Source of the DNA: an uncultured bacterium
GTDB lineage: Bacteria > Patescibacteriota > Minisyncoccia > Moranbacterales > UBA2206
DNA: 64,000 nt
Reading direction: 5' to 3'
NCBI GenBank assembly: GCA_903937035.1
Contig: CAIZXS010000023.1
Span: forward strand, 1,188 to 65,187
Shown here: positions 3,943 through 52,714 of the stretch, piece by piece
How the letters are laid out: each line of letters starts with the position of its first letter
How positions within the stretch are numbered: the stretch's first letter is position 1
Program-made: the position numbers and the translations under genes
Notes under the pieces: generated by a model
What the model was told of the DNA's origin: nothing
Databases searched by the model: none
What the model saw: only the letters and a program-made list of their open reading frames with translations

Positions 3943-4941
3943 TTATTTATTACTAATATATGCAGCCATTTCTACAAGCCGATTAGAATAGCCCCATTCA
4001 TTGTCATACCAACCGACAACCTTAACCAAATTGCCATTAGCCATCGTAAGTGGAAGGTCTACAATTGCGCTATGCGCATCTCCTTTAAAATCCATAGACA
4101 CTAATCCCTCATCAGTTACTGAGAGAATTCCCTTCATATCATTTTGTGCTGCATCACGAAAGGCATTGTTCAATTCATCTACCGTTGCATCTTTCTTTAA
4201 ATTACAAATAAAATCAACAATGGAAACAACTGGAGTTGGAACACGCAGAGAGATTCCATCCAGCTTACCCTCCAAATGTTTCATAACCTTGCCCACAGTT
4301 TTTGCTGCACCGGTTGTTGTTGGAATAATACTAAGAGCTGCTGCCCTTGCTCGTCGCAGATCTTTATGTGGCAAATCCAAAATGCGCTGATCATTTGTGT
4401 AGGAATGAGTAGTGGTCATAAAACCTTTCTCTAAGCCGAAATTATCATCTAAGATCTTAATTATCGGAGCGAGACAGTTGGTCGTACAAGAACCATTGGA
4501 AATAATCGCTTCGGACGGATCATACTCATTTTCATTAACCCCTAAAAGATAAATTGGAATATCATCTTTTGGTGGCGCACTAAGAATCACTTTCTTCGCG
4601 CCAGCCTCTAGGTGCTTGCTTGCTTTTTCTCGATTCTCAAAAACTCCAGTGCATTCAAGAACAATGTCAATTCCCAACTCTTTCCAAGGTAATTTTTCAG
4701 GGTCCTTCTCGGAAAAAAATTTGATCCTAGTTCCATCTATGATTAATTCTGAATTTTCCTCATCCACATTTACTTCATGAGCATAGCGACCGTAACTAGA
4801 GTCATATTTAAAAAGATGCGCAGCAGTCTTGAGATCAGTAAGATCATTGATCGCGACTACTTCCAAATCTTCTTTTTCAAAGGCGATTTTTAGACTTGGT
4901 CTACCAATTCGACCAAAACCATTGATTGCAATTTTTGTCAT
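3943..4941 (-). CDS. gap: Glyceraldehyde-3-phosphate dehydrogenase
   Basis: INGFGRIGR, SNGSCTTNCLAP, WYDNEWGYS. Start set at MTKIAING; the longer MLHVAYY extension in the ORF track is read through the upstream CATG-heptad element. Confidence 0.95.
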   Translation of the reverse strand: MTKIAINGFGRIGRPSLKIAFEKEDLEVVAINDLTDLKTAAHLFKYDSSYGRYAHEVNVDEENSELIIDGTRIKFFSEKDPEKLPWKELGIDIVLECTGVFENREKASKHLEAGAKKVILSAPPKDDIPIYLLGVNENEYDPSEAIISNGSCTTNCLAPIIKILDDNFGLEKGFMTTTHSYTNDQRILDLPHKDLRRARAAALSIIPTTTGAAKTVGKVMKHLEGKLDGISLRVPTPVVSIVDFICNLKKDATVDELNNAFRDAAQNDMKGILSVTDEGLVSMDFKGDAHSAIVDLPLTMANGNLVKVVGWYDNEWGYSNRLVEMAAYISNK

Positions 4942-5018
4942 GTAGTATGCAACATGTAACATGTAACAATTCTCCTTTTGAGCGTTGCTTCATATTTCAT
5001 GTTTTGTATTATGTAAAT
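4939..5018 (-). promoter_or_regulatory. Bipartite CATG-heptad element upstream of gap. The proximal part abuts the ATG (minus-strand reading TTGTTACATGTTACATGTTGCATACTACATG); a degenerate distal part reads CATGAAATATGAAG
   Basis: 7-nt periodic YTACATG repeats adjoining the start codon, as found at dfx, adk and rpmB. Confidence 0.5.
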
Positions 5019-5318: not shown

Positions 5319-5693
5319 CTAGCTGACCCAAAGACCATGAACATTGCAATAAGCCCTCGCTGCAAGGTGCTCTGCCTCCAAGAAAAACTCCACCTGAGGC
5401 TCTGATCCCGGCTCTAGATATTTGCGATATACCCGATGTTCCGTAACAACCTCAATCCATTCAATATAATGTTCACTCTCCATTGGATGAGTAATCTCTC
5501 CGACACGTACAATCACGCCAGTATCATTTCTTTCAATCGTTGGCTTATGTTTCTCCACTCCCTCGTCTTCTGTTTTGGCAAATTGCTGCTCCATCGGGGC
5601 CCCACAGCAAACCAACTCCCCCGCGCCCCCATGTGTCATTTCAACTATGTTCCCACAAATGTTACACTTGTAGATTTGATTTAGTTCAGTCAT
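5319..5693 (-). CDS. dfx: Desulfoferrodoxin (2Fe superoxide reductase)
   Basis: Desulforedoxin-like N-terminus YKCNICGNIVEMTHGGAGELVCCGAPM. SOR domain with EKHKPTIE, HPMESEHYIEWIE and AYCNVHGLW. Start set at MTELNQ. Confidence 0.9.
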   Translation of the reverse strand: MTELNQIYKCNICGNIVEMTHGGAGELVCCGAPMEQQFAKTEDEGVEKHKPTIERNDTGVIVRVGEITHPMESEHYIEWIEVVTEHRVYRKYLEPGSEPQVEFFLEAEHLAARAYCNVHGLWVS

Positions 5694-5824
5694 AGTTATG
5701 TAGCATGAAACATGTAGCATGTAACAATTGAATGCTTCAAGCTTCGTGCGTGTTAAATAATTTTTAATCTTGTCCATCTCCCCCTTGCTCTCTCTGTTTT
5801 ATGTTTCATGTTTCATGTTTCATG
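5691..5824 (-). promoter_or_regulatory. Bipartite CATG-heptad element upstream of dfx. The proximal part reads AATTGTTACATGCTACATGTTTCATGCTACATAACT+ATG; the distal part is (CATGAAA)x3, 67 nt further upstream
   Basis: Direct read of the sequence. The distal array is the reverse complement of a (TTTCATG)n array, so it is inverted relative to the proximal YTWCATG heptads. Confidence 0.55.
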
Positions 5825-5825
5825 A

Positions 5826-7085
5826 CTAATGCACCGCGCAAGAAATGCACGGATCATAGGCACGAATGAACGCGCGCAACTTTTTTTCTTTTTCCTTATC
5901 TTTTAATTTCAAGATTTGAGGAATATATGCGGCGATATCATCTTCCAGATTAGACAAGAACTGAGCGGTTGGAGTAATGATGTTCACGTTTTTAACATAA
6001 CCCTTGGCGTCAACATCGACGTGATAATAGAGTGTTCCGCGTGGCGCTTCCACTGCTGCCGAACCCTCACCTTCTTTAATGGTATATTCTTTTGTCACGA
6101 CTTCTTCCAAATCACTGCTTAACAGCTCCAACATAATTCTTCTTGATTCTTCAATCGAATGAATGACTTCTACCATCTGCGCTAGAATATTATGGAAAGG
6201 ATTATAATCGGGGAAGTTCCATCCCAGACTTTTCAGATATTCTGAGGCCTTCAATCTTAACTTAACTCTATTATTGTTTATTCGCGCAATCGCTCCTATC
6301 ATATAGCTCTTTCCATTGTGCTCCACTCTTTTAATTATCTCGTTCTGTTTTTGCAGTTCCAAAAAGTTAGCTTCAAATTTTTCCACTGGGATATGCAAAC
6401 CAAAATTGGAAATTATATCCCCATCATAAATCGCATATTCTCCTCTCTTGTCCAGTGAAACATATTCAGTCTCTCGCGAAAAATCTGGTATTTTGATGCC
6501 GCGAAAAAATTCCCCTAGCTCCAATGCTATTTGCAAAACATCCTCTGAATTTTTAAGTATTCCTTTTAATAATTCCCTGTCTGGAGCCTTCTTAAACCCA
6601 CCCACCTCATTGGTCAGCGGATGCACAACCCTCCCACCAACCACCCTCACTATCTCCATTCCGAATTCACGAAGTTTGATTGCTTTCTTCGCCTCTTCAG
6701 GGTATTTACTCACGAGCTCAATGTCATTATCCATATCCAAGAAATCAGCTAGAGACAGAAAAAAGAGATGCAGTGAATGAGAATGAATGAACTGCGCATA
6801 TTCCATAAGTGTTCGCAGCTTTTCCGTCTCATATGTTACAGTTACGCCCATGGCATTTTCTAGAGCCTTAATCGAAGTAAGATTGTGTACGACAGGACAA
6901 ATCCCACAAATACGTTGAGCAACAAGAGGCATGTCCTTATACTCCCGCCCAACGAGAACGCCTTCAATAAGACGAATTCCCTCTTGCACCTGCAACTTGG
7001 CCGATTTAACATCACCCTTTATCACGCTTGCCATAAAGCCAGCATGACCTTCCATTTTTGCGATATGATTTATTTTGATATTCAT
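5826..7085 (-). CDS. [NiFe] hydrogenase large (catalytic) subunit, cytoplasmic group 3 type
   Basis: N-terminal RICGICPVVH. The C-terminus has DPCISCAVH, and the protein ends at that His with no C-terminal extension. Confidence 0.9.
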   Translation of the reverse strand: MNIKINHIAKMEGHAGFMASVIKGDVKSAKLQVQEGIRLIEGVLVGREYKDMPLVAQRICGICPVVHNLTSIKALENAMGVTVTYETEKLRTLMEYAQFIHSHSLHLFFLSLADFLDMDNDIELVSKYPEEAKKAIKLREFGMEIVRVVGGRVVHPLTNEVGGFKKAPDRELLKGILKNSEDVLQIALELGEFFRGIKIPDFSRETEYVSLDKRGEYAIYDGDIISNFGLHIPVEKFEANFLELQKQNEIIKRVEHNGKSYMIGAIARINNNRVKLRLKASEYLKSLGWNFPDYNPFHNILAQMVEVIHSIEESRRIMLELLSSDLEEVVTKEYTIKEGEGSAAVEAPRGTLYYHVDVDAKGYVKNVNIITPTAQFLSNLEDDIAAYIPQILKLKDKEKEKKLRAFIRAYDPCISCAVH

Positions 7086-9976: not shown

Positions 9977-11314
9977 GTGCAACAAAAAAAATCCTCCATG
10001 CTATACTATTCTCATCATATGAACACCCACCCCTTCCCCCAAAAAACCAAGCAGACTATCCTCGCCCTCGGCGCCGAATCCGAAGGAAATTTCTGTTTTT
10101 TTGCACAAAACAAAATTTATTTTTCGGAGAATTTTGGTGATCTCTTGAAAGAAAAAAACTGGCAAAAATATCAAGCGGCGGTTTTGGAATTTTTGAAAAA
10201 AAATAAATTCAAACCGGACCTACTTCTCACCGACCTACATCCTCTCTATTTGACTTCGGTTTGGGGCAAAGCTCTAGGTAAAAAATACAAAGTTAAGCAT
10301 ATTCAAGTTCAACACCACCTAGCGCACCTTTTCTCAACTATCGGCGAAAAAATCATATTAGATACTAAATACCAGATACCAGATACCATTTACGGGATTG
10401 CTATGGATGGAACGGGCTATGGAACTGATGAAAAAATTTGGGGAGGAGAAGTGTTTAAAATCAAAAATCCCATGCCTACCGGCAGGCAGGAAAAATCAAA
10501 AATAAAAATTATCGAACGAATCGGCCATCTTGAAAATCAAGTCTTGATCGGTGGAGATTTAGCAATAAGAGAACCGGCGCGAATGTTGATTAGCATTTTG
10601 GATAAGGTATTGTTACCCCCTCCTTACCAAGGAGAGGGGTTGGGGGTGAGGTTAAAGAGCAATACACAAAGAAAAAATACTACTTACCGCTTCGTAAAAA
10701 ACTACTACACCAAAAACGAATTTGAGTTAATTTACGCCCAGCTCCAGCAAAATTTCAACTGCCTCGAAACTTCCAGCACCAGCCGAGTCCTAGATGCTGT
10801 TTCGCTACTTTTAGGTTTTTGTGAAAATGAGAGAAAATACAAGCACGAACCGATCGCTCCGCTAGAAACCAACTCCACAAGACCCTATGTGGATTTAAAA
10901 CCAAAAATTATACTTTCACAGGGCAAGCGAGTTTTAAACACGACTTTTTTGTTTGAATATTTAATTAAAAATTTGCATAAAGATAAGAAGCGCCTAGCTG
11001 CAACTGCACAACTCTATGTCGCTCGGGGATTATATGAACTCATAAAAAACAGTTGTCATCCTGAGCGAAGTCGAAGCCTGCCTGCCGGTAGGCAGGGATC
11101 TACCTGCAAATACCACCAGCGATATTCTACAGAAGATTCTTCGACTCCGCTGCGCTGCGCTCAGAATGACATTTTTATAGCCGGTGGCATCGCCAATAAC
11201 AAAATTATTTCTGTATATTTAATTTCCCAAGGTGCTTATGCAAGCAAAGAGATCCCCCGCGGCGACGCCGGGCTTTCTTTTGGACAGATTATTTGCTACT
11301 TACTTTCAAAGTAA
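9977..11314 (+). CDS. hypF: HypF-like carbamoyltransferase, Kae1/TsaD-like C-terminal domain only. It lacks the acylphosphatase, Zn-finger and YrdC domains and carries in-frame insertions
   Basis: VQHHLAHLFS (HypF HHxAH motif), ILALGAESEGNFCF, FIAGGIANN. Internal palindromic 16-mer at 10475-10490 and a MITE-like insert at 11055-11170. Confidence 0.6.
   Translation: MQQKKSSMLYYSHHMNTHPFPQKTKQTILALGAESEGNFCFFAQNKIYFSENFGDLLKEKNWQKYQAAVLEFLKKNKFKPDLLLTDLHPLYLTSVWGKALGKKYKVKHIQVQHHLAHLFSTIGEKIILDTKYQIPDTIYGIAMDGTGYGTDEKIWGGEVFKIKNPMPTGRQEKSKIKIIERIGHLENQVLIGGDLAIREPARMLISILDKVLLPPPYQGEGLGVRLKSNTQRKNTTYRFVKNYYTKNEFELIYAQLQQNFNCLETSSTSRVLDAVSLLLGFCENERKYKHEPIAPLETNSTRPYVDLKPKIILSQGKRVLNTTFLFEYLIKNLHKDKKRLAATAQLYVARGLYELIKNSCHPERSRSLPAGRQGSTCKYHQRYSTEDSSTPLRCAQNDIFIAGGIANNKIISVYLISQGAYASKEIPRGDAGLSFGQIICYLLSK
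10475..10490. repeat. Palindromic 16-mer CCTACCGGCAGGCAGG; reverse complement of the 16-mer at 11077-11092
   Basis: Exact inverted match ~600 nt apart inside the hypF-like ORF. A related hairpin, CTGCCGACAGGCAG, lies at 55633-55646. Confidence 0.6.
11055..11170. mobile_element. MITE-like element with terminal inverted repeats GTCATCCTGAGCGAAGTCGAAG / CTTCGACTCCGC..CTCAGAATGAC, inserted in frame within the hypF-like CDS
   Basis: The ends match the intergenic copy at 52587-52714 and the centre differs. It contains the hairpin CCTGCCTGCCGGTAGGCAGG. The host ORF stays open, with encoded insert ...HPERSRSLPAGRQGSTCKYHQRYSTEDSSTPLRCAQNDIF... Confidence 0.65.
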
Positions 11315-27221: not shown

Positions 27222-27969
27222 AAATCTCAACACCATTTTTTGTGACCACAATAGTATCTTCAAAATGCGCACTAAGCCTTCCGTCTTTCGTCGCATATGT
27301 CCAACCATCCCCCAATACCTTTATATAATGAGTGCCCGCATTAATCATCGGCTCAAGCGCTAGCGTCATTCCTTCCTGCAGAATTATTTCTCGCATCGCA
27401 GAGGAATAGTTCGGAATTTGCGGATCTTCATGCAATTCCCTGCCTACTCCATGCCCAACTAATTCGCGCACCACGGAAAAACCCTGCAATTTAGCGTGCT
27501 TCTCAACTGCCTTCCCGTAATCACTCAATTTTGATCCAGCTTTGATTGTCCCCAATCCTTCATCAAGGCATTCTCGAGTTGTATCTAAAATTCTCTGCGC
27601 TTCAGTCGAAATCCTCCCAACGGAATATGTACGAGCCATATCAGTAATCATGCCTTTATACGTCATCCCGATATCTATTTTTACTAAATCACCATCATGA
27701 ACAATCCTACTTTTCTTGGGAATACCATGCACGATCTCATTATTTATAGAGGTGCAAATAGCGGCTGGAAAGGCATTACCCGGAGCTCCATAGCCCTCAA
27801 AAATTGGAAATCCTCCATTATCAAAAACAAGCTTTCTTGCTAGCTTGTTAATCTCGAAAGTATTTTGCCCGGGAATAATTATACCGCTTAATTGCTCCAT
27901 AATCTGAGCTAACAGTTTTCCGCCTTCGCGCATCGCATCTATTTCTTTTTTTGATTTGATGATAATCAT
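27208..27969 (-). CDS. map: Methionine aminopeptidase type I
   Basis: Conserved metal-ligand context (D..D..H..E..E) and overall match to map. Confidence 0.95.
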   Translation of the reverse strand: MIIIKSKKEIDAMREGGKLLAQIMEQLSGIIIPGQNTFEINKLARKLVFDNGGFPIFEGYGAPGNAFPAAICTSINNEIVHGIPKKSRIVHDGDLVKIDIGMTYKGMITDMARTYSVGRISTEAQRILDTTRECLDEGLGTIKAGSKLSDYGKAVEKHAKLQGFSVVRELVGHGVGRELHEDPQIPNYSSAMREIILQEGMTLALEPMINAGTHYIKVLGDGWTYATKDGRLSAHFEDTIVVTKNGVEILTRV

Positions 27970-28601
27970 AGTATTTTTAAAATATCCTCAAAAACTTCAT
28001 TTGGACTTTTAGATCCATCAATTCTGGAAACCAATTTCTTATTTTCAAAATATTCAATCACTGGAATCGTTTCCTCCATAAAAATACTCAATCTTTTTTC
28101 AATACCTTCCTTCGTATCATCCACTCTTTGGACCAACTTCCCGGAGCATTTTAAACAAATAAGATTTTGGTCATCCTCTTTCAAGACTACCGCTTCTTTG
28201 CATTTTTCGCAAGAAAACCGCTTTCCAATTCTTTTCAGCGACTCCTCTTTAGAAATATCCACAAAAATAACTCGATCAATCTTCCGGCCAAATTCCCCCA
28301 GTGCTTGCTCAAAATATCCTGCTTGATCAATATTTCTTGGAACTCCATCGAAAACGACTCCCTGTTCCCGTCCGAGATCATCAAGGCGAATATGCAAAAT
28401 TTCTCGCAATATTCGACTTGGCACAAGCGTTTTTGTCACATTCTGAATCTCGTAAACCTCACGCCCCAAAGGAGTGTCTAATTTAGCAACTTGACGCAAA
28501 GCGCAGCCAGTATCAAAATGATCCAAGCCAAATTTTTCTGCCAAAAGTTTTGCCTGTGTGCCTTTGCCTGAGCCTTGGGGACCCAAAATCACTAAATTCA
28601 T
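27966..28601 (-). CDS. adk: Adenylate kinase (zinc-lid type)
   Basis: GPQGSGKGTQ; lid CEKC...CLKC. Start set at MNLVILGP; the ORF-track extension MRRSLFCQNCYMVHAICY is read through the upstream element. Confidence 0.95.
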   Translation of the reverse strand: MNLVILGPQGSGKGTQAKLLAEKFGLDHFDTGCALRQVAKLDTPLGREVYEIQNVTKTLVPSRILREILHIRLDDLGREQGVVFDGVPRNIDQAGYFEQALGEFGRKIDRVIFVDISKEESLKRIGKRFSCEKCKEAVVLKEDDQNLICLKCSGKLVQRVDDTKEGIEKRLSIFMEETIPVIEYFENKKLVSRIDGSKSPNEVFEDILKIL

Positions 28602-28704
28602 ATAACATATAGCATGAACCATGTAACAATTCTGGCAAAACAAACTTCTCCGCATTAAGATTTAAGAGAAAGTTGTTTCATGTTTCATGTTTCATGCTGC
28701 ATGA
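28599..28704 (-). promoter_or_regulatory. Bipartite CATG-heptad element upstream of adk, immediately after the secY stop. Distal part CATGCAGCATGAAACATGAAACATGAAA; 43-nt spacer; proximal part AATTGTTACATGGTTCATGCTATATGTTAT+ATG
   Basis: Direct read of the sequence; same architecture as the dfx and rpmB copies. Confidence 0.55.
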
Positions 28705-29979
28705 TTAAAAGCCTTCATAATCCCGCATCGCGAGTTGTCCTTGCACCTGCTTGATTGTTTCAATCACAACCGAAACAACGATTAAGAGTCCAGTTCCACC
28801 AATAGAGATAGACCCGATATTAGTAAAGCTTTCCACAAAAAAAGGCAATATTGCGATAAGACCTAAAAAAACTGCGCCAGAAAGAGTAATCCGATTCATA
28901 ATACGATAGAGATAATCAGCGGTATTTTTTCCTGGACGAATTCCGAGAATGTAACCACCTTGCTTTTGCAAACTTTCAGCAATTTTATTTGGATCAAAAA
29001 CAACTGCGGTATAAAAATAAGTAAAGGCGACAACAAGAATAAAATAAAACAACCAATAGAACCAATTGCTTGGAGAAAAAAGCGCACTCACCTTCACAGC
29101 CAAGTTGGCAAGAGTAGTGTTGGAACTTTTCGTAAGAAAATTAGCAATCATTCCTGGAAAAAGCATAATAGAAAGTGCGAAAATAATCGGAATCACGCCA
29201 GCCTGATTGATGCGCAGTGGCAAATGCGTTGAAGTTCCGCCGTACATTTTATTACCCTTAATTCTTTTTGCGTAAGAAACGGGCATATTGCGCTGCCCCT
29301 CTGTCATAAAGACCACAGCAGAAATTGCCAAAATCAAAATAGCACCCAAGATCAAATAAGTAAAAATTTGTGACGAATCCGCTGTCGCATAAGTCTTGGC
29401 TATTGTCGAGGGAATGGCAGAAACGATTCCAGCAAAAATGATGAGCGAAACTCCATTGCCAACACCTTTTTCCGTGATTAGCTCGCCTAGCCACATAAGG
29501 AATATCGTTCCGGCAGTGGCAATTACCATCATCGAGATCACGCTTGTCGCTCCAGTCGCGGCAATAATTCCTTGCGAACGAAAAAGTGCAATCATGCCAA
29601 AAGTCTGCATCGCAGCGAGAGGCACCGTTGCCCAGCGTGTCCATTGATTAAATTTCTGTCGCCCAGCCTCTCCCTCTTCCTTATATATTTTTTCCAATGT
29701 TGGAACAATCATCGTAAGCAGCTGCATGATAATCGAGGCGGTAATATAGGGTCCCACGCCAAGCATTACCAGGGAAATACTCGACAATCCTTGCCCAGAA
29801 AAAAGATTAAGTAAACCAAAAAGCTCATTGCTCTCAAAAAATGCCTTGAGCCGATCCTGATCAACACCAGGGATAGGAATGTTGGCTGCCAAACGAAATA
29901 CGACCAAAAGAGCCAGAATAAAAAATATCTTATTCCTGAGCTCTTTAATACGAAAGATTTGAGTGATTTTAGCTAGCAT
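28705..29979 (-). CDS. secY: Preprotein translocase SecY
   Basis: 10-TM SecY sequence. Confidence 0.97.
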   Translation of the reverse strand: MLAKITQIFRIKELRNKIFFILALLVVFRLAANIPIPGVDQDRLKAFFESNELFGLLNLFSGQGLSSISLVMLGVGPYITASIIMQLLTMIVPTLEKIYKEEGEAGRQKFNQWTRWATVPLAAMQTFGMIALFRSQGIIAATGATSVISMMVIATAGTIFLMWLGELITEKGVGNGVSLIIFAGIVSAIPSTIAKTYATADSSQIFTYLILGAILILAISAVVFMTEGQRNMPVSYAKRIKGNKMYGGTSTHLPLRINQAGVIPIIFALSIMLFPGMIANFLTKSSNTTLANLAVKVSALFSPSNWFYWLFYFILVVAFTYFYTAVVFDPNKIAESLQKQGGYILGIRPGKNTADYLYRIMNRITLSGAVFLGLIAILPFFVESFTNIGSISIGGTGLLIVVSVVIETIKQVQGQLAMRDYEGF

Positions 29980-52198: not shown

Positions 52199-52260
52199 AC
52201 ATTTTCTTGCTAAAATTATATTCCTATGCTACCTTATATCTTGTAATAAATCAACCAATT

Positions 52261-52354
52261 CATGAAACATGTAACATGAAACACGCAACAAGAGAATCAC
52301 TTCTCTTCGCTGGATACCGCGTGCTACATGCTATATGCTTCATGCTACATGTCT
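52261..52354 (+). promoter_or_regulatory. Bipartite CATG-heptad element upstream of rpmB. Distal part CATGAAACATGTAACATGAAACACG; 36-nt spacer; proximal part TGCTACATGCTATATGCTTCATGCTACATGTCT+ATG
   Basis: Plus-strand copy of the element family; it causes the artefactual [10 protein letters not shown]-terminal extension. Confidence 0.55.
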
Positions 52355-52528
52355 ATGAGTCGAGTTTGTGAAGTTTGCGGACGCGGTCCAGGAACAGGGC
52401 ACACCGTCAGCCATTCTAATGTAAAAACCTTGCGAAAATTTCAAATCAATTTGCAAAGCAAGAAAATTGACGGCGCAAAAACTAGAGTTTGCACCCGTTG
52501 TATCAAAACTGCTAACAAAGAAAAGTAA
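52355..52528 (+). CDS. rpmB: Ribosomal protein bL28 (zinc-binding form)
   Basis: [22 protein letters not shown]...RVCTRC. Confidence 0.85.
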
Positions 52529-52586: not shown

Positions 52587-52714
52587 GTCATCCTGAGCGA
52601 AGTCCGTACTCGGACACAGTCGAAGGATCTGCTAGCGGTAATCGTAGTTTTTACTATTTACCACAACACTAGCAATAATTGAAAGCAGATTCTTCGACTC
52701 CGCTCAGAATGACA
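52587..52714. mobile_element. MITE-like element, intergenic copy (terminal repeats GTCATCCTGAGCGAAGTC... / ...AGATTCTTCGACTCCGCTCAGAATGAC)
   Basis: Its ends match the copy at 11055-11170 and the centre differs (contains GTCCGTACTCGGAC hairpin). Located between rpmB and ndk. Confidence 0.65.

What the first reader, a model, noticed from the sequence alone, without database searches (positions are those of the whole stretch)
11055..11170. MITE-like element inserted in frame inside the hypF-like coding sequence
A ~116-nt segment is bounded by imperfect terminal inverted repeats (GTCATCCTGAGCGAAGTCGAAG ... CTTCGACTCCGC-CTCAGAATGAC) and contains a GC hairpin (CCTGCCTGCCGGTAGGCAGG). A second element with the same ends and a different centre sits intergenically at 52587-52714. 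Here the insertion keeps the host reading frame open and adds roughly 39 residues (HPERSRSLPAGRQGSTCKYHQRYSTEDSSTPLRCAQNDIF). That means it is either tolerated as a protein insertion or marks hypF as decaying.
Basis: seen in the sequence. Interest (0 to 1): 0.7.

Follow-up and report, generated by a model that had tools for sequence, protein, structure and literature searches.

The report
In-frame hairpin repeat inside hypF gene
A 117-base selfish hairpin repeat, which looks like the gene-less remnant of a small mobile unit encoding a nuclease that probably cuts single-stranded DNA, sits in frame in a surface loop of a hydrogenase-maturation gene of a Moranbacteria (CPR) bacterium, where it appears to have been tolerated for a long evolutionary time.

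Summary
Window 11055-11170 is bounded by GTCATCCTGAGCG / CGCTCAGAATGAC. A second copy lies at 52587-52713. The 117-nt insert adds 39 in-frame residues to a stand-alone Kae1-like HypF gene in an intact NiFe-hydrogenase/hyp cluster.

The element is not private to this genome. The same termini occur in many phyla. In CPR metagenome contigs they also bound 408-429-bp units that encode a 93-aa single-domain GIY-YIG protein. That protein is 45% identical to the NTS-flanked gonococcal SsnA ortholog; SsnA is a site-specific ssDNA nuclease (Chenal 2025). The short copies equal this unit minus its ORF.

Eight diverged HypF orthologs examined at DNA level (54-78% amino-acid identity) carry the element at the same codon. 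Among the five first compared, third codon positions in the termini are 96/96 identical, against 57% in the host gene. AlphaFold places the insert in a disordered loop, and the downstream catalytic motifs stay in frame. The gene is therefore tolerated, not decaying.

Copies also sit in frame in RecG and RsmA of other CPR bacteria, as Rickettsia palindromic elements do. The GC hairpin is a separate nested palindrome. No target-site duplication was found, and the published SRM pattern is not matched. How the element moves is inferred only.

The parts
10019..11314 (+). Host gene: a stand-alone HypF C-terminal (Kae1-like) carbamoyltransferase-domain protein of 431 aa (the ORF is open from GTG 9977).
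   Evidence: Pfam PF17788 and PF22521 match. TIGR00143 matches only positions 387-686 and scores below its cut-off. P0001 is 100% identical and is seen on 8 contigs. The gene sits in a hyp/NiFe-hydrogenase cluster. The AF2 model best matches HypF crystal structures, 3VTH at E = 2.6e-22.
11054..11170 (+). Inserted unit of 117 nt (39 codons, C360-D398). It is an ORF-less hairpin element of the GTCATYCTGAGCG family.
   Evidence: It is absent from short orthologs. It is homologous to both ends of the GIY-YIG units. pLDDT is below 50 for residues 363-392.
11055..11076 (+). Left terminus, GTCATCCTGAGCGAAGTCGAAG.
   Evidence: Third codon positions are identical in all ortholog pairs.
11077..11097 (.). 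Nested GC palindrome CCTGCCTGCCGGTAGGCAGG(G), a secondary insertion into the left terminus.
   Evidence: I3; I12. It is absent from the L157 ortholog, which instead carries the 17-nt GTCCGTACTCGGAC module; the net difference is +3 nt.
11098..11138 (+). Centre of the element (ATCTACCTGCAAATACCACCAGCGATATTCTACAGAAGATT). It is shared with the copies in other HypF orthologs and resembles the RecG copy.
11139..11170 (+). Right terminus, CTTCGACTC(CGCTG)2CGCTCAGAATGAC.
52587..52713 (+). Second copy, 127 nt, intergenic. It has the same termini, carries the GTCCGTACTCGGAC module, and has a different, longer centre. It has a stop codon in the CHPERS frame.
10470..10490 (.). Second copy of the small GC palindrome, also in frame in the host gene (encodes ..PTGRQ..), at another variable loop.
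   Evidence: (I12). The site is variable in A2. pLDDT is below 50 at residues 167-175.

Best explanation
The segment is a non-autonomous, ORF-less derivative of a small inverted-repeat-bounded unit. The full form of that unit (about 410-430 bp) encodes a 93-aa single-domain GIY-YIG nuclease homologous to SsnA, the site-specific single-strand DNA nuclease of Neisseria. One such derivative became fixed in a surface loop of the Kae1-like HypF protein in an ancestor of several Moranbacteria lineages. It survived for three reasons. First, the element is open in the CHPERS...AQND frame in either orientation. Second, its length with one flanking base is a multiple of three. Third, the loop between the long helix and the IFxAGG strand tolerates extra disordered residues. 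It has since been inherited vertically as 38-52 extra residues. Small hairpin modules were swapped in and out of its termini, always in multiples of three in net effect; in this window a 17-nt module is replaced by a 20-nt GC palindrome.

Shown here: the identity of the termini, the homology to the GIY-YIG unit, the SsnA homology of that ORF, the shared insertion site, the conservation at synonymous sites, the loop location, and the in-frame copies in RecG and RsmA.

Inferred: that the Ssn-like nuclease recognises these termini and drives their spread, for example by nicking single-stranded DNA next to the termini followed by repair or recombination. It is also inferred that the high nucleotide conservation reflects constraint on hairpin or terminus sequence, or concerted evolution.
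For: The termini are exact and non-random. The metagenome scan with the CPR-type left end gave 57 loci. Most copies are 113-157 nt and intergenic. Three loci (L128 9257-9664, L148 305-729, L166 998-1426) have the same termini 408-429 bp apart around a 93-aa ORF. That ORF matches Pfam GIY-YIG at 1.2e-14. Alignment A4 shows that the short copies equal the unit minus its ORF.

The ORF is 45% identical (E = 6e-28) to a 94-aa gonococcal ORF surrounded by 9 NTS repeats. This fits SsnA as described in PMC11893778: 94 aa, cd10448, with an SRM-ssn-SRM architecture. In unrelated phyla, 6 of 7 loci that contain small GIY-YIG ORFs have those ORFs abutting the same termini.

Eight other HypF-ortholog loci examined at DNA level (L003/L174, L004, L005, L006, L157, L184, L185, L186) carry the element after the same codon; L185 is partly decayed. 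Third-position identity is 96/96 in the terminus codons against 1444/2550 in the host gene. Over the whole element it is 93-100% against 60-64%. A compensatory change, AGCCGAAG/CTTCGGCT, is present in L003.

The AF2 model has pTM 0.80 with the insert at pLDDT below 50, and its best fold matches are HypF structures. The C-terminal residues after the insert are invariant. In-frame copies occur in RecG (L145) and RsmA (L136).
Against: The termini do not match the published degenerate SRM pattern. Their local hairpin is weak, at -1.5 to -2.7 kcal/mol and no better than shuffles, against -8.9 for NTS. No ssn/GIY-YIG ORF lies in the 64-kb window, so a cognate nuclease in this genome is unproven. GIY-YIG enzymes are not known to catalyse strand transfer, and no transposition of any Ssn unit has been shown. 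No target-site duplication was seen. The NJ tree places element-bearing and element-free orthologs as sisters, so a single ancient insertion requires several losses or replacements, or the tree is poorly resolved. No transcript or protein data exist.
Confidence: 0.72

Rival explanations
1. It is the same element family, but the copies in the HypF orthologs are not one ancient insertion. They would result from repeated site-specific insertion, or from ongoing gene conversion from other genomic copies, and that would explain the near-identical termini.
For: The element is patchy on the ortholog tree, with element-free sisters. The same loop carries at least three different GTCAT-hairpin families in different lineages, within 1-3 codons of each other. 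Flank composition is non-random: T at -1 and A at +1 in 56/59 copies each, with an A-rich left flank and a T-rich right flank. This hints at target preference. The element is far more conserved than host synonymous sites.
Against: All family-A copies sit after exactly the same codon position. They also share lineage-specific centres and modules that track the host clades: the H->R change is shared by P0021 and P0024, and the GVYPARSG module by P0014, P0021 and P0024. Decayed versions (P0017/P0027, L185) and a deletion (P0039) nest within element-bearing clades. The intergenic copy in the same window has a different centre, so conversion from it did not occur.
Confidence: 0.12
2. It is a classical MITE: an internally deleted insertion sequence mobilised in trans by a DDE or HUH transposase, for example a Tc1/IS630-like element with a TA target or an IS200/IS605/RAYT-like element.
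For: It has terminal inverted repeats, small size and many copies, and nearly every copy is flanked by T...A.
Against: Across about 1.4 Mb of fetched loci, the only conserved gene family recognised between a pair of these termini is the GIY-YIG gene; other wide pairs enclose ordinary host genes. No duplicated target was found. Transposase families were not searched for explicitly.
Confidence: 0.06
3. The insertion marks a decaying hypF pseudogene.
For: The host gene carries three repeat-derived inserts and lacks the N-terminal half of canonical HypF.
Against: The frame is open to a conserved C-terminus, with invariant G403 G404 N408 K409 ... G429 D430 G432 S434 F435 G436 Q437. The truncated architecture is family-wide in about 120 homologs. 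The insert has been kept in frame in lineages down to 54% amino-acid identity despite module swaps. The neighbouring hypC/D/E and hydrogenase genes are intact. The identical protein is seen on 8 contigs.
Confidence: 0.04
4. The segment is a native, functional part of the protein, and its inverted repeats are incidental.
For: The amino-acid motifs CHPERS and AQNDIF are conserved in several orthologs.
Against: The same nucleotide sequence occurs intergenically, in RecG, in RsmA and around GIY-YIG genes. Many orthologs lack it. Synonymous positions are frozen. The predicted structure is disordered there.
Confidence: 0.02

Closest known systems
Ssn nucleases with their NTS/SRM hairpin repeats (Neisseria meningitidis SsnA; Chenal et al. 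2025, PMC11893778), and the dRS3/NTS-bounded Neisseria intergenic mosaic elements
   Same: A single-domain GIY-YIG gene of about 94 aa is flanked on both sides by inverted copies of a repeat that begins GTCAT. Many ORF-less inverted pairs of the repeat enclose 100-150 nt elsewhere in the genome (one search shows this for the gonococcus; for CPR). The CPR protein is 45% identical to the NTS-flanked gonococcal protein. The terminus shares 5' GTC, then a palindrome AT(C/T)C..G(G/A)AT, then C. The paper reports these positions as critical for cleavage and binding.
   Different: The terminus GTCATYCTGAGCG..GAAGRATC fails the published SRM pattern, and its local hairpin is weak. NTS repeats are only 2% intragenic in N. 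meningitidis, whereas here copies are translated in frame in conserved genes. Nuclease activity of the CPR protein is untested.
Rickettsia palindromic elements (RPEs; Ogata et al. 2000 and 2002, as summarised in PMC10969869)
   Same: Both are palindromic repeats of about 100-150 bp, inserted in frame in unrelated housekeeping genes. Both encode a conserved peptide and sit at positions compatible with the protein fold (here).
   Different: The host phylum differs (CPR/Patescibacteria), and no sequence relationship to RPEs was tested. A candidate autonomous parent unit (GIY-YIG) is identified here. The termini are shared across many phyla.
REP/BIME elements with RAYT (IS200/IS605-like Y1) transposases
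   Same: Both are hairpin repeats with a single small enzyme gene flanked by inverted copies, no target duplication, and clusters or tandem arrays (L113). The analogy is drawn by Chenal et al..
   Different: The associated enzyme is GIY-YIG, not an HUH/Y1 enzyme. REPs are extragenic by definition.
Classical bacterial MITEs (for example the Correia element, ERIC, Nezha)
   Same: All have terminal inverted repeats, are under 200 bp, are non-coding and multi-copy, and are occasionally inserted in frame within genes.
   Different: There is no target-site duplication and no transposase-encoding parent was found.

Membership tests
MITE (strict sense) | Small (under about 500 bp), non-coding, bounded by terminal inverted repeats. 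| tested here: met
   The element is 116 nt between GTCAT and ATGAC. Arms of 13-17 nt are 88-92% complementary.
MITE (strict sense) | Multiple copies per genome or lineage. | tested here: met
   There are 2 copies in the 64-kb window. The metagenome scan gave 57 loci with the CPR-type left end. The whole-genome count is unknown.
MITE (strict sense) | Target-site duplication flanking the element. | tested here: not met
   No direct repeat was found in 59 copies. The only regularities are T at -1 and A at +1 (56/59 each) and A-rich / T-rich flanks.
MITE (strict sense) | Derived from an autonomous IS that encodes a transposase with the same termini. | tested here: not met
   The only conserved gene family recognised between these termini is a 93-101-aa GIY-YIG gene. 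Transposase families were not searched for explicitly.
Ssn / SRM system (Chenal 2025) | The repeat matches the degenerate SRM pattern HGTCWYN(0-2)YYVSBRHN(0-5)WNVSBRGN(0-2)RNCYNB. | tested here: not met
   There are no hits in the window or on the consensus termini. An NTS-identical SRM does sit in the same HypF loop in another CPR lineage (L189 6006-6033).
Ssn / SRM system (Chenal 2025) | A single-domain GIY-YIG gene of about 94 aa is flanked on both sides by inverted copies of the repeat. | tested here: met
   Seen in L128, L148 and L166 from CPR, and in L009, L020, L076, L082, L099 and L116 from other phyla.
Ssn / SRM system (Chenal 2025) | The flanked protein is homologous to SsnA (cd10448). 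| tested here: met
   It is 45% identical over 89 aa (E = 6e-28) to a 94-aa N. gonorrhoeae ORF surrounded by 9 NTS repeats. CDD assignment itself could not be run.
Ssn / SRM system (Chenal 2025) | The repeat forms a stable local hairpin preceded by GTC and followed by C. | tested here: inconclusive
   GTC + ATCCT..AGGAT + C is present, but the 5-bp stem is no better than shuffles, whereas NTS and the L190-type terminus fold strongly.
Ssn / SRM system (Chenal 2025) | The nuclease cuts single-stranded DNA next to the repeat. | not testable with these tools
   This needs biochemistry.
Ssn / SRM system (Chenal 2025) | An ssn gene is present in the genome that carries the repeats. | tested here: inconclusive
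   None was found in the 64-kb window. The rest of the genome is not available.
RPE-like protein-coding palindromes | The same palindromic repeat is inserted in frame in unrelated conserved genes. | tested here: met
   Seen in HypF-like (window, L003-L006, L157, L174, L184, L186), RecG (L145/L028) and RsmA/KsgA (L136).
RPE-like protein-coding palindromes | The insertion lies at a surface position compatible with the fold and function of the host protein. | tested here: met
   In the AF2 model, the insert residues 363-392 have pLDDT below 50 and lie between helix 337-360 and strand 399-402. The rest of the model matches HypF structures. Function itself is untested.
RPE-like protein-coding palindromes | Sequence homology to the Rickettsia RPE families. 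| not tested
   No RPE sequences were compared.
HypF carbamoyltransferase (TIGR00143, host gene) | Full-length architecture: acylphosphatase, Zn fingers, YrdC-like domain and Kae1-like domain. | tested here: not met
   Only profile positions 387-686 of 741 match, at 197 bits against a cut-off of 466. Pfam finds only HypF_C and HypF_C_2. The same holds for about 120 homologs.

The most novel reading that the evidence does not exclude
GIY-YIG (Ssn-type) units bounded by GTCAT termini may be a pan-bacterial class of mobile DNA that acts on single-stranded DNA, with MITE-like ORF-less derivatives. In CPR bacteria these derivatives would colonise coding sequences in frame and then be kept under nucleotide-level selection. 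That would mean the hairpins inside genes such as hypF, recG and rsmA are maintained as functional nuclease or recombination sites, for example to gate replacement of genes by transformation. They would then be functional sites rather than neutral passengers.
Probability: 0.22. Interest if true: 0.8.

Novelty: new variant of a known kind. Interest (0 to 1): 0.6.

Why it matters
It ties three things together that the literature searched here treats separately: Rickettsia-style 'protein-coding palindromes', Neisseria NTS/Ssn hairpin repeats, and the very common GTCATYCTGAGCG...GCTCAGRATGAC hairpins seen in many phyla. It suggests that the last group is the ORF-less form of an Ssn-type GIY-YIG unit. 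It also shows that in reduced CPR genomes such repeats are translated as loop insertions in conserved enzymes.

There are three practical consequences. First, gene callers and domain models split or truncate these proteins; the Pfam match of HypF stops at the insert. Second, many small 'hypothetical proteins' with VILSE.., HPERS.., ..AQDD or ..LRMT peptides are probably translations of these repeats. Third, the termini give a testable substrate for a new Ssn specificity. If the frozen synonymous sites reflect selection, this would be a case of a DNA-level signal embedded in a protein-coding loop.

Tried and rejected
- **Rfam.** A permissive scan of both copies found no family covering the element. 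The only hits were terminator-like matches beside copy 2.
- **Literature.** Searches for the terminus sequence itself returned only unrelated primer or shRNA hits. Searches for CPR/Patescibacteria with MITE or palindromic elements found nothing relevant.
- **Four-helix-bundle idea.** I first thought the termini might flank four-helix-bundle '23S rRNA IVS protein' genes. The IVP and 84-aa GIY-YIG genes in L005 are not flanked by them, and that GIY-YIG belongs to a different subfamily. I dropped the idea.
- **Published SRM pattern.** It gave no match.
- **Peptide-profile search (A3).** This was meant to find other host proteins carrying the element. It returned only 11 tiny ORFs and missed even the HypF orthologs, so it was uninformative.
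- **Group I/II intron or intein.** Rejected: the segment is 117 nt, has no Rfam hit and has no splicing domain.
- **Assembly artefact.** Rejected: the identical protein is seen on 8 contigs from several sources.
- **Other solo hairpins in the window.** A scan for GTCAT plus hairpin found only one weak candidate, at 27365-27407, probably chance.
- **Long spanning ORFs in high-GC genomes.** Most are wrong-frame artefacts. Only L016 looked like a genuine in-frame copy.
Full report
**Observation**

GTCATCCTGAGCGAAGTCGAAG begins at 11055 and ...CTTCGACTCCGCTGCGCTGCGCTCAGAATGAC ends at 11170. The repeat finder reports inverted arms at 11054-11070/11155-11171 and 11064-11076/11139-11151, and a GC palindrome around 11077-11097. 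The 18-nt terminus occurs three times in the window against 0.01 expected. The 13-nt half-site occurs exactly four times, at both ends of two elements: 11055-11170 and 52587-52713. Both copies fold much better than shuffled controls.

The second copy lies between convergent ORFs, just after a terminator-like hairpin. The ORF 9977-11314 reads through the first copy and gains SCHPERS...CAQNDIF. The gene as called elsewhere starts at 10019. With one flanking base, the insert is 117 nt, or 39 codons.

**The host gene**

The gene encodes only the Kae1-like C-terminal half of HypF, and this holds for all of about 120 homologs of 360-505 aa. Where the homologs are named, they come mostly from Candidatus Moranbacteria and other Patescibacteria. 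The gene sits between the NiFe-hydrogenase small and large subunit genes and hypE, hypD and hypC.

An AlphaFold model built on 23 homologs has pTM 0.80. Its best structural matches are the HypF crystal structures 3VTH, 3VTI, 3TSP and 4G9I. Apart from the N-terminal 11 residues, the low-confidence stretches are 167-175, 216-225 and 363-392. These are exactly the three places where this protein carries repeat-derived extra residues relative to short orthologs. The residues after the insert (GG..NKIIS...GDAGLSFGQ) are invariant across the family. The gene therefore looks functional, and the insert looks like a tolerated loop.

**Orthologs**

The alignment shows the same segment at the same place in some orthologs and not in others. 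I fetched the DNA of eight other element-bearing ortholog loci: L003/L174, L004, L005, L006, L157, L184, L185 and L186. All carry the element after the same codon, with TGTCATCCTGAGCGAAGTC... and ...GCTCAGAATGACAT intact at the nucleotide level; L185 is partly decayed.

Among the five orthologs first compared, third codon positions at identical amino acids agree in 1444 of 2550 comparisons (57%) in the host gene. In the ten terminus codons they agree in 96 of 96. Over the whole element the figure is 93-100%, against 60-64% for the host.

One copy (L003/L174) has a two-sided change that keeps a stem pair: AGCCGAAG / CTTCGGCT. Decayed versions (P0017, P0027, L185) and a deletion (P0039) nest among element-bearing relatives. 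Lineage-specific details track host clades, for example the H->R change and the GVYPARSG module. I read this as one old insertion, or a few, inherited vertically. The element is under some nucleotide-level constraint or undergoes homogenisation. The NJ tree is patchy, so repeated insertion or conversion is kept as a rival.

**Modular ends**

Comparison of copies shows a core: GTCATCCTGAGCG-(module)-GTCGAAGGATCT ... AGATTCTTCGAC-(CGCTN)n-CGCTCAGAATGAC. The module slot holds different small hairpins: GTCCGTACTCGGAC in most CPR copies, CCCGAGTACTCTCGGG in L004, and others in L148 and L166.

In the window's hypF copy the 17-nt module is missing. Instead, a 20-nt GC palindrome sits four bases further in. 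The net change is +3 nt relative to L157, the closest ortholog with DNA in hand, whose aligned centre is otherwise identical. The same palindrome occurs once more in the window, at 10470-10490, again in frame in this gene. The 'GC hairpin' is thus a second, nested repeat family and not part of the element.

**What the element is**

These came from Bacteroidota, Acidobacteriota, Firmicutes, Planctomycetota, Chloroflexota, Verrucomicrobiota, Actinobacteria, Patescibacteria and other phyla. All show the same architecture. No Rfam family covers the element, and the sequence does not appear in the searchable literature.

In these loci, 6 of the 7 that contain small GIY-YIG ORFs have those ORFs abutting the termini, and in L009 and L020 a pair of termini encloses the ORF. 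A metagenome scan with the CPR-specific left end gave 57 loci. Most copies are 113-157 nt (mode 137) and intergenic. In three loci the termini lie 408-429 bp apart and enclose a 93-aa ORF that is a single GIY-YIG domain. Alignment A4 shows that the short elements, including both window copies, are this unit with the ORF removed.

Chenal et al. 2025 (PMC11893778) describe SsnA of Neisseria meningitidis as a 94-aa single-domain GIY-YIG site-specific ssDNA nuclease. Its gene is flanked by NTS hairpin repeats (CGTCATTCCCGCG..GCGGGAATC). The same holds for thousands of homologs flanked by 'SRM' repeats, an architecture they call identical to an insertion sequence. A tblastn search found the CPR protein's relative in two gonococcal chromosomes filed as plasmids. 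That 94-aa ORF is surrounded by nine NTS copies and is 45% identical to the CPR protein, E = 6e-28.

The CPR unit is therefore an Ssn-type unit. The window element is its ORF-less derivative. Its architecture parallels the inverted NTS pairs visible in the gonococcal locus.

**Limits of that assignment**

- The termini do not match the published SRM pattern.
- They share GTC + AT(C/T)C...G(G/A)AT + C with NTS, but their local hairpin is weak. NTS and the L190-type terminus fold strongly.
- No ssn gene lies in the 64-kb window.
- No target-site duplication exists. Instead, 56 of 59 copies have T before and 56 of 59 have A after the element, and the flanks are A-rich on the left and T-rich on the right.
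- No one has shown that Ssn units move.

**In-frame copies elsewhere, and a hot spot**

In the 57 CPR loci the element is read through in frame in RecG (L145, the same contig as L028), in RsmA/KsgA (L136, opposite orientation but the same HxERS...AQDD reading), and in two HypF orthologs. One non-CPR MAG has a likely in-frame copy in a TrmH-like ORF. This is the behaviour described for Rickettsia palindromic elements.

The HypF loop is a hot spot. Across 120 homologs it holds the GAGCG-type element and a GTCATCCTGAA-type mini-element (L190). It also holds a single hairpin that matches the Neisseria NTS pattern at every base but the first and fits the SRM pattern (L189 6006-6033), and many short heptad-like repeats. 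All GTCAT-type inserts are read as C-H-P/S... because the third frame contains TGA.

**Verdict**

The refinement is that the element belongs to a very widespread family of hairpin repeats associated with Ssn-type GIY-YIG genes. It is old and tolerated in hypF rather than a sign of decay.

In-frame palindromic repeats and Ssn/SRM repeats are each known. What I did not find in the literature searched is the following combination:

- a terminus variant outside the published pattern;
- ORF-less derivatives translated in conserved CPR genes;
- a recurrent insertion loop;
- frozen synonymous sites.

I rate it a new variant of a known kind, with interest 0.6.

Noticed in passing
window 10470-10490 and 11077-11097: A 20-21-nt GC palindrome (CCTGCCGGTAGGCAGG core, peptide PAGRQ/PTGRQ) occurs only twice in 64 kb. 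Both copies are in frame in the hypF-like gene, one of them nested inside the element. Orthologs show the same palindrome at other spots (CLPARQ in P0013, CLPAGRL in P0044). It looks like a separate family of tiny insertions.
   Followed up: partly
window about 10607-10660: This is a third in-frame repeat insert, LLPPPYQGEGLGVRLKS, encoded by a hairpin CCCCTCCTTACCAAGGAGAGGGG. At the same site, orthologs carry SPLLTKERVRVRL or SPSPFGRGWRGAPGEG, which look like other frames or the other strand of the same repeat. Short orthologs have a 26-residue gap there.
   Followed up: partly
L189 6006-6033; L190 3946-4044: Two other CPR HypF orthologs carry different GTCAT hairpins in the same loop. L189 has TGTCATTCCCGCGCAGGCGGGAATCCAG, which fits the Neisseria NTS pattern at every base but the first and matches the published SRM pattern. 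L190 has a 57-nt pair of unlike hairpins, GTCATCCTGAATTTATTTCAGGATC ... GATGCCGAACAAGTTCGGCATGAC.
   Followed up: partly
window 10019-11314 and about 120 homologs: HypF in these Patescibacteria is only the Kae1-like C-terminal half. There is no acylphosphatase, zinc-finger or YrdC-like domain, yet it sits in a full hypA/C/D/E and NiFe-hydrogenase cluster. How carbamoyl-adenylate would be made is unclear.
   Followed up: no
window 4921-4973, 5679-5731, 5795-5829, 28598-28708, 52260-52356: These are intergenic inverted repeats built from ATGTAAC/ATGAAAC heptamers, such as TCATGAAACATGTAACATG... paired with ...CATGTTTCATGTTTCATGA. They form another hairpin repeat family in this genome. Related heptad-like peptides fill the HypF loop in other orthologs.
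   Followed up: no
59 CPR copies (loci L127-L183 and the window): Flanks are non-random. T is at -1 in 56/59 copies and A is at +1 in 56/59. There is an A-run on the left and a T-run on the right, so the flanks themselves are complementary. There is no target duplication. All copies that are read through in genes have a GTCAT..ATGAC length equal to 2 modulo 3.
   Followed up: partly
L113 6309-7224: Six 101-nt elements lie in tandem with a period of about 136 nt in one genome, a BIME-like array.
   Followed up: no
L005 192-548 and 6289-6543; L187 5173-5329: Relatives have small '23S rRNA IVS protein' (four-helix-bundle) genes and an 84-aa GIY-YIG gene of another subfamily lodged in or next to the hyp cluster. 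These genes are not flanked by the GAGCG-type termini.
   Followed up: partly
PLSDB records NZ_CP119140.1 and NZ_CP119142.1 (L188): Two records labelled as plasmids are 2.17-Mb Neisseria gonorrhoeae chromosomes. The ssnA-like ORF there is unannotated in the table and lies among nine NTS repeats arranged as inverted pairs.
   Followed up: yes
L191-L207 (IMG/VR contigs): Seventeen viral-collection contigs carry complete paired termini, and one contig carries at least six copies. It was not examined whether these are phages, prophage flanks or misclassified DNA.
   Followed up: no
L016 971-1075: In a non-CPR MAG (Candidatus Gilichinskyi gelida) a 105-nt copy is read through within what looks like a TrmH/SpoU-type methyltransferase ORF. 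In-frame copies may therefore not be limited to CPR.
   Followed up: no
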